Shown: piece after piece, positions 4,650 through 57,782 of the stretch
How positions within the stretch are numbered: position 1 is the stretch's first letter
Layout: every line of letters starts with the position of its first letter
Assembly: GCF_013315695.1 (NCBI RefSeq)
Contig: NZ_CP054353.1
Strand: one strand, 5' to 3'
DNA from: Escherichia coli
GTDB lineage: Bacteria; Pseudomonadota; Gammaproteobacteria; Enterobacterales; Enterobacteriaceae
DNA length: 64,000 nt
Notes under the pieces: model-generated
Told to the model about the DNA's origin: nothing
Database searches by the model: none
What the model saw: only the letters and a program-made list of their open reading frames with translations
Position numbers and translations under genes: made by a program

Positions 4650-5672
4650 ATGTCTACGATGAATGTTTTAATTTGCCAGCAGCCGAAAGAATTAGTCTGG
4701 AAACAACGCGAGATACCTATTCCGGGTGACAATGAAGCATTAATAAAAATTAAGTCTGTCGGGATTTGCGGTACCGATATTCATGCCTGGGGTGGACATC
4801 AACCATTTTTTAGTTATCCACGGGTTTTAGGCCATGAAATATGTGGGGAGATTGTTGGGCTGGGTAAAAATATTGCTGATCTTAAAAATGGTCAGCAAGT
4901 TGCTGTGATCCCTTATGTTGCCTGTCAGCAATGCCCAGCGTGTAAAAGCGGTCGTACCAATTGCTGTGAAAAAATTTCAGTCATCGGCGTGCATCAGGAT
5001 GGCGGTTTTAGTGAGTATTTGAGCGTGCCGGTGGCGAACATTTTGCCCGCAGACGGTATTGACCCGCAGGCGGCCGCATTGATTGAACCTTTCGCTATTA
5101 GCGCTCATGCGGTGCGTCGCGCAGCCATTGCTCCCGGCGAGCAGGTGCTGGTGGTCGGGGCGGGGCCAATCGGTCTGGGCGCGGCGGCAATCGCTAAAGC
5201 CGATGGCGCACAGGTGGTGGTGGCGGATACCAGTCCGGCGCGCCGTGAACATGTGGCAACGCGTCTGGAGTTGCCCGTGCTGGACCCGTCAGCCGAAGAT
5301 TTTGACGCGCAGCTGCGGGCGCAGTTTGGTGGTTCGCTGGCGCAGAAAGTGATCGACGCGACAGGTAATCAACATGCGATGAATAACACCGTGAATCTGA
5401 TTCGTCACGGCGGCACGGTGGTATTTGTCGGCCTGTTTAAAGGTGAGTTGCAGTTCTCCGATCCGGAATTCCATAAAAAAGAAACGACGATGATGGGCAG
5501 CCGCAACGCCACGCCGGAAGATTTCGCTAAAGTCGGTCGACTGATGGCGGAAGGGAAAATCACTGCTGACATGATGTTAACCCATCGCTATCCGTTCGCC
5601 ACGCTGGCAGAAACCTACGAGCGCGATGTGATTAACAATCGTGATTTGATTAAGGGTGTAATTACTTTCTGA
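4650..5672 (+). CDS. lgoD: Zn-dependent L-galactonate 5-dehydrogenase (MDR alcohol dehydrogenase family)
   Basis: ORF with GHE..CG..C zinc-ADH motifs and GxGxxG Rossmann motif; ATG at 4650 preceded by ggag; track ORF starts 15 nt earlier. Confidence 0.85.
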   Translation: MSTMNVLICQQPKELVWKQREIPIPGDNEALIKIKSVGICGTDIHAWGGHQPFFSYPRVLGHEICGEIVGLGKNIADLKNGQQVAVIPYVACQQCPACKSGRTNCCEKISVIGVHQDGGFSEYLSVPVANILPADGIDPQAAALIEPFAISAHAVRRAAIAPGEQVLVVGAGPIGLGAAAIAKADGAQVVVADTSPARREHVATRLELPVLDPSAEDFDAQLRAQFGGSLAQKVIDATGNQHAMNNTVNLIRHGGTVVFVGLFKGELQFSDPEFHKKETTMMGSRNATPEDFAKVGRLMAEGKITADMMLTHRYPFATLAETYERDVINNRDLIKGVITF

Positions 5673-22199: not shown

Positions 22200-22975
22200 T
22201 TTGCCGTTTTATCGACACCCACTGCCATTTTGATTTCCCGCCGTTTAGTGGCGATGAAGAGGCCAGCCTGCAACGCGCGGCACAAGCGGGCGTAGGCAAG
22301 ATCATTGTTCCGGCGACAGAGGCGGAAAATTTTGCCCGCGTGCAGGCGTTAGCGGAAAAATATCAACCGCTGTATGCCGCATTGGGCTTGCATCCTGGTA
22401 TGTTGGAAAAACATAGCGATGTGTCTCTTGATCAGCTACAGCAGGCGCTGGAAAGGCATCCGGCGAAGGTGGTGGCGGTGGGGGAAATCGGTCTGGATCT
22501 CTTTGGCGACGATCCGCAATTTGAGAGGCAGCAGTGGTTACTCGACGAACAACTGAAACTGGCGAAACGCTACGATCTGCCGGTGATCCTGCATTCACGA
22601 CGCACGCACGACAAACTGGCGATGCATCTTAAACGCCACGATTTACCGTGCACTGGCGTGGTTCATGGTTTTTCCGGCAGCCTGCAACAGGCCGAACGGT
22701 TTGTGCAACTGGGCTACAAAATTGGCGTAGGCGGGACTATCACCTATCCACGCGCCAGTAAAACCCGCGATGTCATCGCAAAATTACCGCTGGCATCGTT
22801 GTTGCTGGAAACCGACGCACCAGATATGCCGCTCAATGGTTTTCAGGGGCAGCCTAATCGCCCTGAACAGGCCGCCCGTGTGTTTGCCGTGCTTTGCGAG
22901 TTACGACCGGAACCGGCGGATGAGATTGCCGAAGTGTTGCTTAATAACACCTATACGTTGTTTAACGTGCCGTAG
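22196..22975 (+). CDS. yjjV: TatD-family metal-dependent hydrolase
   Basis: 259-aa ORF with HCHFDF motif; TTG start overlapping the yjjU stop. Confidence 0.8.
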   Translation: MICRFIDTHCHFDFPPFSGDEEASLQRAAQAGVGKIIVPATEAENFARVQALAEKYQPLYAALGLHPGMLEKHSDVSLDQLQQALERHPAKVVAVGEIGLDLFGDDPQFERQQWLLDEQLKLAKRYDLPVILHSRRTHDKLAMHLKRHDLPCTGVVHGFSGSLQQAERFVQLGYKIGVGGTITYPRASKTRDVIAKLPLASLLLETDAPDMPLNGFQGQPNRPEQAARVFAVLCELRPEPADEIAEVLLNNTYTLFNVP

Positions 22976-23091
22976 GCCGGACAAGGCGTTTACGCCGCAT
23001 CCGGCCGTTGGCGCACAATGCCTGATGCGACGCTTGACGCGTCTTATCATGCCTACAGGTCTGTGCCGATCCGTAGGCCACATCCGGCATG
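22976..23091. repeat. REP/BIME cluster between convergent yjjV and yjjW
   Basis: Three REP-like palindromic units (gccggacaaggcgtttacgccgcatccggc; gcctgatgcgacgcttgacgcgtcttatcatgcctac; gtaggccacatccggcatg). Confidence 0.75.
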
Positions 23092-49907: not shown

Positions 49908-50117
49908 AAAACGCCTTAGTAAGTATTTTTCAGCTTTTCATTCTGACTGCAACGGGCAATATGTCTCTGTGTGGATTAAAAAAAGAGTGTCTGATAGCAG
50001 CTTCTGAACTGGTTACCTGCCGTGAGTAAATTAAAATTTTATTGACTTAGGTCACTAAATACTTTAACCAATATAGGCATAGCGCACAGACAGATAAAAA
50101 TTACAGAGTACACAACA

Positions 50118-50186
<69 letters not shown>

Positions 50187-50204
50187 CGCGTACAGGAAAC
50201 ACAG

Positions 50205-50240
50205 AAAAAAGCCCGCACCTGACAGTGCGGGCTTTTTTTT
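50205..50240 (+). terminator. thr attenuator (rho-independent terminator)
   Basis: aaaaaagcccgcacctgacagtgcgggc followed by an 8-T run. Confidence 0.9.
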
Positions 50241-50266
50241 CGACCAAAGGTAACGAGGTAACAACC

Positions 50267-55163: not shown

Positions 55164-55460
55164 GTGAAAAAGATGCAATCTATCGTAGTCGCACTTTCCC
55201 TGGTTCTGGTCGCTCCCATGGCAGCGCAGGCTGCGGAAATTACGCTAGTCCCGTCAGTAAAATTACAGATAGGCGATCGTGATAATCGTGGCTATTACTG
55301 GGATGGCGGTCACTGGCGCGACCACGGCTGGTGGAAACAACATTATGAATGGCGAGGCAATCGCTGGCACCCACATGGACCGCCGCCATCGCCGCGCCAT
55401 AACAAGCACAATGATCATCGTGGCGATCATCGTCCGGGGCCTGACAAACATCATCGCTAA
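55164..55460 (+). CDS. yaaX: His/Trp-rich secreted small protein YaaX (DUF2502)
   Basis: 98-aa ORF with signal peptide [23 protein letters not shown]; GTG start. Confidence 0.8.
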
Positions 55461-55499
55461 ATATCAATGCCGGATTGCCATCCGGCATTGACTACAAAC

Positions 55500-56276
55500 T
55501 TAACGCTGCTCGTAGCGTTTAAACACCAGTTCGCCATTGCTGGAGGAAGCTTCATCAAAGAAGTAACCTTCGCTATTAAAACCAGTCAGTTGCTCTGGTT
55601 TGGTCAGCCGATTTTCAATAATGAAACGACTCATCAGACCGCGTGCTTTCTTAGCGTAGAAGCTGATGATCTTAAATTTGCCGTTCTTCTCATCGAGGAA
55701 CACTGGCTTGATAATCTCGGCATTCAATTTCTTCGGCTTCACCGATTTAAAATACTCATCTGACGCCAGATTAATCACCACATTATCGCCTTGTGCTGCG
55801 AGCGCCTCGTTCAGCTTGTTGGTGATGATATCTCCCCAGAATTGATACAGATCTTTCCCTCGGGCATTCTCAAGACGGATCCCCATTTCCAGACGATAAG
55901 GCTGCATTAAATCGAGCGGGCGCAGTACGCCATACAAGCCGGAAAGCATTCGCAAATGCTGTTGGGCAAAATCGAAATCGTCTTCGCTGAAGGTTTCGGC
56001 CTGCAAGCCGGTGTAGACATCACCTTTAAATGCCAGAATCGCCTGGCGGGCATTCTCCGGCGTGAAATCTGGCTGCCAGTCATGAAAGCGAGCGGCGTTG
56101 ATACCCGCCAGTTTGTCGCTGATGCGCATCAGGGAGCTAATCTGCGGGGGCGTCAGTTTCCGCGCTTCATGGATCAGCTGCTGGGAGTTGTCTAACAGCT
56201 CCGGCAGCGTATAGCGCGTGGTGGTCAACGGGCTTTGGTAATCAAGCGTTTTCGCAGGTGAAATAAGAATCAGCAT
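55500..56276 (-). CDS. yaaA: Peroxide stress resistance protein YaaA (DUF328)
   Basis: 258-aa [20 protein letters not shown]... Confidence 0.9.
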
Positions 56277-56345: not shown

Positions 56346-57782
56346 TTACTCCTGCGAAACGTCATCCCACGCGTCTGGAGAAAGCTGGCGACCGATCTCC
56401 GGATAACGCAACGGATCAAACACCGGGCGCACGCCGAGTTTACGCTGGCGTAGATAATCACTGGCAATGGTATGAACCACAGGCGAGAGCAGTAATATGG
56501 CGGTCAAATTGGTAATAGCCATGCAGGCCATTATGATATCTGCCAGTTGCCACATCAGCGGAAGACTTAGCAAGGTACCGCCGATGACCGTTGCGAAGGT
56601 GCAGATCCGCAGACACCAGATCGCTTTAGGGTTGTTCAGGCGTAAGAAGAAGAGATTGTTTTCGGCATAAATGTAGTTGGCAACGATGGAGCTGAAGGCA
56701 AACAGAATAACCACGAGGGTAACAAACTCCGCACCCCAGGAACCCATTAACACCCGCATCGCCTTCTGGATAAGCTGAATACCTTCCAGCGGCATGTAGG
56801 TTGTGCCGTTACCCGCCAGTAATATCAGCATGGCGCTTGCCGTACAGATGACCAGGGTGTCGATAAAAATGCCAATCATCTGGACAATTCCTTGCGCTGC
56901 CGGATGCGGAGGCCAGGACGCCGCTGCCGCTGCCGCTGCCGCGTTTGGCGTCGACCCCATTCCTGCCTCATTGGAAAACATACTGCGCTGAAAACCGTTA
57001 GTAATCGCCTGGCTTAAGGTATATCCCGCCGCGCCGCCTGCCGCTTCCTGCCAGCCAAAAGCACTCTCAAAAATAGACCAAATGACGTGGGGAAGTTGCC
57101 CGATATTCATTACGCAAATTACCAGGCTGGTCAGTACCCAGATTATCGCCATCAACGGGACAAACCCCTGCATGAGCCGGGCGACGCCATGAAGACCGCG
57201 AGTGATTGCCAGCAGAGCAAAGACAGCGAGAATAATGCCTGTCACCAGCGGAGGAAAATCAAAAGAAAAACTCAGGGCGCGGGCAACGGCGTTCGCCTGA
57301 ACTCCGCTGAAAATTATGCCGTAAGCGATGAGCAAAAAGAGGGCGAACAGAACGCCCATCCAGCGCATCCCCAGCCCGCGCGCCATATACCATGCCGGTC
57401 CGCCACGAAACTGCCCATTAACGTCACGTTCTTTATAAAGTTGTGCAAGGGAACATTCGGTAAACGAGGTCGCCATGCCGATAAACGCGGCAACCCACAT
57501 CCAGAAGACGGCACCTGGTCCACCGGCGGTAATAGCCAGCGCAACGCCAGCCAGGTTGCCGCTACCCACGCGCGCCGCAAGACTGGTACACAATGACTGA
57601 AATGAGGTTAAACCGCCTGGCTGTGGATGAATGCTATTTTTAAGACTTTTGCCAAACTGGCGGATGTAGCGAAACTGCACAAATCCGGTGCGAAAAGTGA
57701 ACCAACAACCTGCGCCGAAGAGCAGGTAAATCATTACCGATCCCCAAAGGACGCTGTTAATAAAGGAGAAAAAATCTGGCAT
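56346..57782 (-). CDS. yaaJ: Alanine/glycine:cation symporter family transporter
   Basis: 478-aa multi-TM ORF containing a poly-Ala stretch. Confidence 0.9.
   Translation of the reverse strand: MPDFFSFINSVLWGSVMIYLLFGAGCWFTFRTGFVQFRYIRQFGKSLKNSIHPQPGGLTSFQSLCTSLAARVGSGNLAGVALAITAGGPGAVFWMWVAAFIGMATSFTECSLAQLYKERDVNGQFRGGPAWYMARGLGMRWMGVLFALFLLIAYGIIFSGVQANAVARALSFSFDFPPLVTGIILAVFALLAITRGLHGVARLMQGFVPLMAIIWVLTSLVICVMNIGQLPHVIWSIFESAFGWQEAAGGAAGYTLSQAITNGFQRSMFSNEAGMGSTPNAAAAAAAASWPPHPAAQGIVQMIGIFIDTLVICTASAMLILLAGNGTTYMPLEGIQLIQKAMRVLMGSWGAEFVTLVVILFAFSSIVANYIYAENNLFFLRLNNPKAIWCLRICTFATVIGGTLLSLPLMWQLADIIMACMAITNLTAILLLSPVVHTIASDYLRQRKLGVRPVFDPLRYPEIGRQLSPDAWDDVSQE

What the first reader, a model, noticed from the sequence alone, without database searches (positions are those of the whole stretch)
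55461..55499. Very short yaaX-yaaA intergenic region; homopolymer difference in the thr attenuator
Only 39 bp (containing one hairpin, gccggattgccatccggc) separate yaaX from yaaA, whereas I recall a longer gap with a REP element in K-12. Together with a divergent yaaX C-terminus and an 8-T rather than 9-T run after the thr attenuator hairpin (50233-50240), this indicates the sequence is not the K-12 reference. The REP difference is an insertion/deletion polymorphism of a mobile palindromic unit.
Basis: partly seen in the sequence, partly recalled or inferred. Interest (0 to 1): 0.15.

Follow-up and report, generated by a model that had tools for sequence, protein, structure and literature searches.

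The report
Strain-level REP-pair deletion between yaaX and yaaA
This E. coli strain lacks a pair of common repeat elements that K-12 has between the genes yaaX and yaaA, and has one less T after the thr attenuator; both are ordinary, widespread strain-to-strain differences.

Summary
Against K-12 MG1655 (NC_000913.3) the window has T8 instead of T9 after the thr attenuator hairpin, a 39-bp instead of 152-bp yaaX-yaaA intergenic region, and a divergent YaaX C-terminal tail. So the sequence is not K-12; the nearest complete genome is strain MSB1_4I.

K-12's extra 113 bp is a pair of inverted REPs with a long linker, fitting a BIME-1. It is bracketed by a 10-bp direct repeat, ATCCGGCATT. The same hairpin follows yaaX in both alleles.

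Among 5,426 complete E. coli genomes:
- about 1,200 have the window's 39-bp allele;
- 198 have 2-4 tandem copies of the 10-mer;
- 3,368 have the K-12 form;
- 649 have IS621 inserted in the left REP.

E. marmotae and a cryptic Escherichia clade carry the orthologous REP pair. The short allele is therefore most likely a secondary deletion between the direct repeats, not an empty site awaiting a mobile element.

T8 is the majority allele (3,728 genomes against 1,652 with T9) and is not linked to the intergenic allele.

This is a known kind of polymorphism and of low interest.

The parts
50122..50241 (+). thr operon leader (thrL 50121-50186 plus the attenuator)
   Evidence: Rfam RF00506 Thr_leader, 121 bits against a gathering score of 55, full model length 1-118/118.
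50211..50232 (+). GC-rich stem-loop of the thr attenuator terminator (GCCCGCACCTGACAGTGCGGGC)
   Evidence: Fold of 50190-50245 gives -24.3 kcal/mol, z -5.9. Identical to K-12.
50233..50240 (+). T8 run after the attenuator hairpin (K-12 has T9)
   Evidence: The exact 60-mer with T8 is in 3,728 genomes and the T9 version in 1,652.
55164..55460 (+). yaaX (DUF2502 protein, 98 aa, GTG start)
   Evidence: ORF list. RefSeq annotation of the 100%-identical strain MSB1_4I. Homologues carry PF10697.
55372..55457 (+). Divergent 3' end of yaaX, encoding the His/Pro/Gly/Arg-rich tail
   Evidence: Alignments. The tail resembles E. marmotae and E. fergusonii ([15 protein letters not shown]) more than K-12's tail does.
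55461..55499 (.). 39-bp yaaX-yaaA intergenic region (short allele)
   Evidence: The junction is present in about 1,200 of 5,426 genomes.
55464..55491 (.). Perfect 12-bp-stem hairpin TCAATGCCGGAT-TGCC-ATCCGGCATTGA between the convergent genes
   Evidence: It is orthologous to the hairpin directly after yaaX in K-12, E. marmotae and the cryptic clade.
55480..55489 (+). Single copy of ATCCGGCATT, the site where K-12's 113 bp are missing. This unit is tandemly repeated 2-4 times in other short-allele strains.
   Evidence: In K-12 the two copies bracket the REP pair.
55500..56276 (-). yaaA (peroxide stress protein), convergent with yaaX

Best explanation
The window comes from a non-K-12 E. coli lineage that carries a common alternative haplotype at the end of yaaX.

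In the ancestor of E. coli and its sister clades, the yaaX-yaaA spacer held two things: a hairpin just after the yaaX stop codon, and a pair of inverted REPs with a long linker (a BIME-1-like element). The 3' arm of the hairpin and the outer 3' arm of the distal REP share the sequence (A)TCCGGCATT in direct orientation, about 113 bp apart. Replication slippage or illegitimate recombination between those two copies, probably helped by the palindromic DNA between them, removed the REP pair and left only the hairpin. That gives the 39-bp spacer seen here. The same 10-mer later expanded by slippage to 2, 3 or 4 tandem copies in some related strains.

Consequences of the loss, all inferred:
- this lineage has no REP/IHF-type site here;
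- it has no IS621 target at this locus;
- the hairpin stays as the shared 3' stem-loop of the two convergent transcripts.

The T8/T9 difference is an independent one-base slippage in a homopolymer of the thr attenuator terminator. T8 is the common state, and the difference is most likely without functional effect.

What is shown: the indel, its repeat boundaries, the allele frequencies, and the orthologous REP pair in outgroups. What is inferred: the direction of the change, the slippage mechanism, and functional neutrality.
For: - **Boundaries.** K-12's extra DNA is flanked by two copies of ATCCGGCATT, and the window has one copy.
- **Simulated deletion.** Deleting between the repeat copies in K-12, Sakai, E. 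marmotae or the cryptic clade gives 38-40-bp products that align end to end with the window's 39 bp. The differences lie mainly in the hairpin loop and in the few bases between the yaaX stop and the hairpin. In K-12 and the two outgroups, 1-3 bases of the short flank before yaaA also differ.
- **Outgroups with the REP pair.** E. marmotae (L012, L013) and a cryptic Escherichia clade (L014, L021, L022) have the same hairpin followed by a REP pair. The linker is recognisably the same (CAATATATTGAATCTGCATGCTTTT) and the right REP has the same ending.
- **More distant relatives.** E. fergusonii and Citrobacter have 36-38-bp spacers with unrelated hairpins.
- **Allele counts.** 1,200 genomes have the 39-bp form, 198 have multi-copy 10-mer forms, 3,368 have the 152-bp form, and 649 have IS621.
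- **Copy number of the 10-mer.** 1 to 4 copies in window/536/CFT073/ABU 83972.
- **T-run.** T8 in 3,728 genomes and T9 in 1,652. All four combinations of T-run and spacer allele occur: K-12 is T9+long; IAI1 and Sakai are T8+long; the window and IAI39 are T8+short; SK1144 and AZ184 are T9+short.
- **Literature.** BIMEs are reported as a major source of intergenic polymorphism between E. coli strains (PMC3333891 and its reference 39).
Against: - The direction of change rests on the accepted placement of E. marmotae and the cryptic clades outside E. coli proper. That placement is established knowledge and was not recomputed here.
- E. albertii and clades I and II were not sampled.
- The YaaX tail next to the deletion looks ancestral in the window's haplotype. 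A retained ancient haplotype with an empty site, plus gene flow of the REP-bearing haplotype, is therefore not excluded.
- The hairpin loop differs between all three lineages (ATTGCC, GTAACA, ATGACC), so the exact parent of the deletion cannot be reconstructed.
- No experiment shows the deletion mechanism, or that T8 and T9 terminate equally well.
Confidence: 0.7

Rival explanations
1. The 39-bp allele is the ancestral empty site. The REP pair was inserted later as a mobile element (REPIN/BIME transposition), and reached both the cryptic clades and most E. coli by descent or recombination.
For: E. fergusonii and Citrobacter have short spacers of 36-38 bp without REPs. The YaaX tail linked to the short allele resembles the outgroup tails more than K-12's does. 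REPs and BIMEs are regarded as non-autonomous mobile elements (PMC3333891, PMC3116915).
Against: The short spacers of E. fergusonii and Citrobacter hold unrelated hairpins, so they are not the same empty site. The REP pair sits at the same place with the same linker in E. marmotae, the cryptic clade and K-12-type E. coli, which means one ancient insertion that predates E. coli. The 10-bp repeat is part of the REP's own stem, not a target-site duplication (sequence).
Confidence: 0.2
2. The REP pair was cut out by the REP-associated tyrosine transposase (TnpA-REP / RAYT), as in the excision model for BIMEs.
For: TnpA-REP cleaves and rejoins single-stranded BIME DNA in vitro, and an excision model has been proposed (PMC3333891).
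Against: The reported cleavage sites are CC|T motifs inside the inverted REP or in the linker. The deletion end points here lie within or at a 10-bp direct repeat (ATCCGGCATT), the signature of slippage or illegitimate recombination. BIME-1 elements are described as single-copy, and the copy-number variability attributed to TnpA-REP concerns BIME-2 and atypical BIMEs.
Confidence: 0.07
3. One or both differences are sequencing or assembly artefacts, such as a homopolymer miscall or a collapsed repeat.
For: Homopolymer length errors are common in some long-read assemblies. A small part of the T8/T9 scatter among 5,426 genomes could have that cause (inference).
Against: The 39-bp junction is identical in about 1,200 independent complete genomes, including older reference strains (SE15, IAI39). 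T8 is found in the reference strains 536, CFT073, IAI39, IAI1 and Sakai, and T9 in many independent K-12 assemblies.
Confidence: 0.02

Closest known systems
BIME-1 (RIB/RIP) elements: single-copy pairs of inverted REPs (z1 + y) with a long conserved linker, at the 3' ends of transcription units
   Same: The K-12 allele at this locus has one 37-nt REP (37/37 to a published REP) and one y-like REP (33/35) in inverse orientation, a 35-bp linker, a single copy, and a position between two convergent gene ends.
   Different: The window does not have the element at all. It keeps only the flanking hairpin, which shares the outer GCCGGAT/ATCCGGC stem with y-type REPs but lacks the inner stem and the adjacent CTAC. 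The IHF-like site in the K-12 linker has one mismatch and is not statistically distinctive.
BIME presence/absence and copy-number polymorphism between E. coli strains (Bachellier et al. 1997, cited as ref. 39 in PMC3333891; Ton-Hoang et al. 2012)
   Same: An intergenic region that differs between strains by whole REP units, with an IS element specifically associated with the REP.
   Different: Nothing different in kind. This locus adds a census over 5,426 genomes and an outgroup-based direction (loss).
IS621 (IS110 family, bridge-RNA recombinase), which targets ATCAGGCCTAC in REPs
   Same: In 649 genomes IS621 lies exactly at ATCAGGCCT|AC of the left REP at this locus, with element ends TGTATTATCCC... 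and ...ACAGTATCT.
   Different: The window has neither IS621 nor its target at this locus. CTTATCAGGCCTAC has no match anywhere in the 64-kb window.
Deletion between short direct repeats flanking palindromic DNA (classical slipped-mispairing deletions; own knowledge)
   Same: A 9-10-bp direct repeat about 113 bp apart, with strongly self-pairing DNA between the copies (-64.9 kcal/mol for the K-12 spacer) and one repeat copy left behind.
   Different: The mechanism is inferred from the end points only. It was not observed.
Thr operon leader / attenuator (Rfam RF00506)
   Same: Full-length match at 121 bits. The leader peptide and terminator stem are identical to K-12.
   Different: The U-tract is 8 rather than 9 residues. 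T8 is the commoner natural allele.

Membership tests
REP / BIME (for the window's 39-bp spacer) | A 20-40-nt imperfect palindrome matching the E. coli REP consensus, with GTAG/CTAC directly at its foot | tested here: not met
   The best local match of the window spacer to three published REP sequences is 9 nt. CTAC lies 5 nt beyond the stem. The K-12 spacer meets the feature (37/37 and 33/35).
REP / BIME (for the window's 39-bp spacer) | [quoted passage not shown] | tested here: not met
   Only one hairpin is present in 55461-55499. The pair is present in K-12, Sakai, IAI1, E. marmotae and the cryptic clade.
BIME-1 (for the K-12 allele that the window lacks) | Single copy, z1 + y REPs, and a long conserved linker that often carries an IHF site | tested here: inconclusive
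   The architecture fits. An IHF-consensus match with one mismatch lies at K-12 5611-5623, but 9 such matches occur in 8 kb against 6.5 expected by chance. The z1/y naming rests on my own knowledge, because the paper's figure is not held.
Intrinsic (Rho-independent) terminator (for the spacer hairpin) | A GC-rich stem-loop followed directly by a U-tract | tested here: not met
   The stem is strong, but no T-run follows on either strand (GACTACAAAC on +, GATATTTAG on -). The terminator scan did not report it.
Thr_leader (RF00506) | Score at or above the Rfam gathering threshold over the full model | tested here: met
   121 bits against 55, model positions 1-118 of 118.
IS621 target site | ATCAGGCCTAC (or ATCGGGCCTAC) within a REP | tested here: not met
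   Absent from the window spacer by inspection. CTTATCAGGCCTAC has 0 matches in the whole window. It is present in the K-12 left REP.

The most novel reading that the evidence does not exclude
The loss of the REP pair is not neutral. By removing the IS621 target, which is occupied in 12% of all complete genomes (about 16% of those that keep the REP pair), and a possible IHF/gyrase-binding BIME-1, the short allele would protect the thr-yaaA region from IS621 insertion and the rearrangements that follow. It might also change the 3'-end processing of yaaX and yaaA mRNAs. On this reading the neighbouring 10-bp repeat (1-4 copies) would be a fast, hairpin-driven contingency-like repeat rather than noise.
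Probability: 0.07. Interest if true: 0.3.

Novelty: already known. Interest (0 to 1): 0.1.

Why it matters
It matters little. The result confirms that the window is a natural, non-K-12 E. coli haplotype, and it documents one more case of REP/BIME presence-absence polymorphism, a phenomenon described since the 1990s.

There are some modest uses:
- The yaaX-yaaA spacer is a compact multi-state marker (39/49/59/69 bp, 152 bp, or about 1.43 kb with IS621) that separates major lineages by simple PCR.
- It is a frequently occupied natural IS621 site, filled in 649 of 5,426 genomes.
- K-12's T9 attenuator and its YaaX tail are the less common or derived states. This is a reminder not to treat K-12 as the ancestral reference.

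Tried and rejected
- **Genome-contig scan.** A codon-degenerate pattern for the last ten YaaA codons found only the E. coli representative. The outgroup YaaA proteins end in ...YELR* or ...RHEQ*, as seen later. I obtained them through YaaX homologues and their contigs instead.
- **IS621 junction query.** A short 86-bp REP::IS621 junction query was not site-specific: 1,824 genomes matched because junctions at other REPs look alike. I replaced it with a query anchored in unique yaaX sequence, which gave 649.
- **Missing reference genomes.** NC_011751 (UMN026) and NC_011745 (ED1a) are not in the collection, so phylogroup D was not sampled from a named reference.
- **E. albertii.** It could not be identified among the YaaX clusters.
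- **Tandem repeats in the window's yaaX tail.** Tandem Repeats Finder found nothing. Only E. marmotae's longer tail scores as a 12/24-bp repeat.
- **Target-site duplication, rejected.** I considered whether the 10-bp direct repeat is a target-site duplication of an inserted element. ATCCGGC is part of the right REP's own stem, so it is not.
- **Inverted hairpin loop, not pursued.** I considered whether the window's hairpin loop is an inverted version of K-12's loop. There are 3 mismatches against 4, which is not informative.
- **Fold call.** One fold call failed on a length limit and was repeated.

Full report
**What is in the window.** The region is the start of the standard E. coli chromosome map. 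K-12 MG1655 position 1 equals window position 49932. The genes are:
- thrL at 50121-50186;
- thrA, thrB and thrC up to 54950;
- yaaX at 55164-55460 on the + strand;
- yaaA at 55500-56276 on the - strand;
- yaaJ at 56346-57782 on the - strand.

Rfam recognises the thr leader over its full length (RF00506, 121 bits against a threshold of 55, 50122-50241).

**Checking the observation.** I fetched the real K-12 reference (NC_000913.3, L001) and aligned it.
- **T-run.** The thr leader, attenuator and thrA start are identical except for the T-run, which is T8 at 50233-50240 and T9 in K-12.
- **Spacer.** The yaaX-yaaA spacer is 39 bp here and 152 bp in K-12.
- **YaaX.** Both YaaX proteins have 98 residues but differ in the last ~29, through substitutions and two compensating 6-bp indels.
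- **Hairpin.** The 39 bp contain one perfect hairpin with a 12-bp stem, TCAATGCCGGAT-TGCC-ATCCGGCATTGA (55464-55491). It is far more stable than shuffled sequence on both strands: -19.1 and -26.5 kcal/mol, z -6.2 and -7.2.

**Anatomy of the difference.** K-12 has the same hairpin directly after the yaaX stop codon (AATGCCGG-GTAACA-ATCCGGCATT). It is followed by:
- a 37-nt REP;
- a 35-bp linker;
- a second REP in inverse orientation, which ends in ATCCGGCATT;
- the short flank GACTGCAAAC, after which yaaA begins.

The left REP is letter for letter one of the three REP sequences listed in PMC11208160. The right REP matches another of them at 33 of 35 positions. This fits the description of a BIME-1 in PMC3333891: a single copy, two REPs in inverse orientation, and a long conserved linker. 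An IHF-like site with one mismatch lies in the linker, but it is not statistically distinctive.

The K-12-specific DNA is bracketed by two direct copies of ATCCGGCATT, and the window has one copy, at 55480-55489. The second copy belongs to the REP's own stem, so the repeat is not a target-site duplication. The window's spacer has no REP; its best match to a published REP is 9 nt.

**Population census in 5,426 complete E. coli genomes.**

| Spacer allele | Genomes |
|---|---|
| 39 bp (junction-specific query) | about 1,200 |
| 2-4 tandem copies of ATCCGGCATT | 198 |
| K-12-type, 152 bp | 3,368 |
| IS621 inserted in the left REP (query anchored in unique yaaX sequence) | 649 |

- These classes account for 5,415 of the 5,426 genomes.
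- Examples of the multi-copy alleles are 49 bp in strain 536, 59 bp in CFT073 and Nissle 1917, and 69 bp in ABU 83972.
- The 39-bp allele is present in IAI39 and SE15.
- From my own knowledge, 536, CFT073, Nissle 1917 and ABU 83972 belong to phylogroup B2, IAI39 to F, IAI1 to B1, Sakai to E and K-12 to A.
- The window itself is 99.9% identical over 12 kb to strain MSB1_4I.

**Direction of the change.**
- **First attempt.** My single scan of species-representative genomes failed to return outgroups.
- **Route used.** I took YaaX homologues, named them through cluster members, and fetched their contigs.
- **Synteny.** The order thrC-yaaX-yaaA-yaaJ is conserved throughout.
- **E. marmotae and a cryptic Escherichia clade.** These have 163-164-bp spacers with the same hairpin (AATGCCGGAT-GACC-TCCGGCATT). 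It is followed by a REP (30/30 or 29/30 to a published REP), a recognisably identical linker (…CAATATATTGAATCTGCATGCTTTT), and an inverse REP that ends in ATCCGGCATT.
- **E. fergusonii and Citrobacter.** These have 36-38-bp spacers with unrelated hairpins.
- **Inference.** E. marmotae and the cryptic clades lie outside E. coli proper (established knowledge, not recomputed here). The simplest history is therefore a single ancient acquisition of the REP pair, followed by its loss in the window's lineage.
- **Simulation.** Simulating a deletion between the two repeat copies in K-12, Sakai, E. marmotae or the cryptic clade gives a 38-40-bp product that aligns end to end with the window's spacer. 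The differences lie mainly in the hairpin loop and the few bases 5' of the hairpin. In K-12 and the two outgroups, 1-3 bases of the short flank before yaaA also differ.

I therefore favour deletion by slipped mispairing between 9-10-bp direct repeats across strongly self-pairing DNA (-64.9 kcal/mol for the K-12 spacer), with confidence about 0.7. The rivals are a retained ancestral empty site with later spread of the REP-bearing haplotype (about 0.2) and transposase-mediated excision (under 0.1). For the excision rival, the end points do not match the reported CC|T cleavage sites.

**The YaaX tail.** The window's tail (…[30 protein letters not shown]) shares NDHRGDH and RPGPD-HHR with E. marmotae, and partly with E. 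fergusonii. K-12's tail (…HHKKAPHDHHGGHGPGKHHR) does not. The "divergent" tail of the window is thus the more ancestral-looking one, and K-12's is the derived one. In E. marmotae the tail is a 12/24-bp coding tandem repeat, which suggests that this low-complexity tail changes by gain and loss of repeat units. Strain GN4738 has a mixed tail together with the REP pair, so the haplotypes are not strictly two blocks.

**The T-run.** The exact 60-mer with T8 is present in 3,728 genomes and the T9 version in 1,652. T8 occurs with the long spacer (IAI1, Sakai) and the short one (window, IAI39, 536). T9 occurs with the long spacer (K-12, H10407) and the short one (SK1144, AZ184). It is a recurrent one-base homopolymer change, unlinked to the spacer allele. 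The terminator stem is unchanged, and eight U residues remain directly after it. I infer no functional effect, but this was not tested.

**What the hairpin does (inference).** It lies between two convergent stop codons and is conserved in position, though not in sequence, from Citrobacter to E. coli. It has no U-tract on either strand and was not reported by the terminator scan. It is therefore more likely a 3' stem-loop that protects both transcripts from exonucleases, or a weak bidirectional stop, than a canonical intrinsic terminator.

**Verdict.** The finding is real, correctly read, and ordinary. It is a strain-level REP-pair indel of a kind documented for decades (PMC3333891 and its reference 39) together with a homopolymer length variant. 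It is already known in kind and of low interest.

Noticed in passing
window 55480-55489; L006 5530-5579 (536); L007 6242-6300 (CFT073); L027 81-149 (ABU 83972): The 10-mer ATCCGGCATT next to the hairpin behaves as a small variable-number tandem repeat: 1 copy in the window, 2 in 536, 3 in CFT073 and Nissle 1917, and 4 in ABU 83972. 198 genomes have at least 2 copies. CFT073, Nissle 1917 and ABU 83972 are close relatives (own knowledge), so the copy number appears to change quickly.
   Followed up: partly
L003 1592-3021 (strain C3); L004 (RMDEC465): IS621 (the IS110-family bridge-RNA recombinase element) sits in the left REP of the yaaX-yaaA element exactly at its published natural target ATCAGGCCT|AC. 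A yaaX-anchored query finds this arrangement in 649 of 5,426 complete genomes, which makes it a heavily occupied natural site.
   Followed up: partly
L025 411-563 (strain FDAARGOS_403): The left REP reads TTATCAGTATCTACGTG instead of TTATCAGGCCTACGTG. This is what deletion of a resident IS621 through the CAG microhomology with its right end (...ACAGTATCT) would leave. It would be an imprecise-loss scar that destroys the IS621 target. Seen in one genome only.
   Followed up: no
L007 311-1047 (CFT073): In CFT073 an IS200C copy lies between thrL and thrA, starting directly after the T8 run of the thr attenuator terminator.
   Followed up: no
L009 190-273 (O157:H7 Sakai): thrL is annotated as 84 nt in Sakai against 66 nt in K-12 and the window. 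The thrL-to-thrA distance is 18 bp longer, so the leader peptide has six extra codons.
   Followed up: no
window 56920-56925: yaaJ carries a 6-bp in-frame insertion (GCCGCT) relative to K-12.
   Followed up: no
L026 114-562 (strain GN4738): This is a mixed yaaX haplotype. The start of the tail is like CFT073 (HPYGPPPS), the rest is like K-12 (HHKKAPHDHHGGHGPGKHHR), and the REP pair is present. In this strain the second ATCCGGCATT is mutated to ATCCGACATT. That suggests recombination or an intermediate state within the ~110-bp divergent block.
   Followed up: no
window 22972-23005 (-): A canonical y-type REP (2 mismatches to the consensus) lies elsewhere in the window, so this strain carries REPs in general. 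The IS621 target context CTTATCAGGCCTAC does not occur anywhere in the 64 kb.
   Followed up: no
L005 10595-11941 (strain MSB1_4I, nearest genome): The closest complete genome has an IS4 pseudogene between mog and satP, a few kb downstream of the finding. I did not check whether the window has it too.
   Followed up: no
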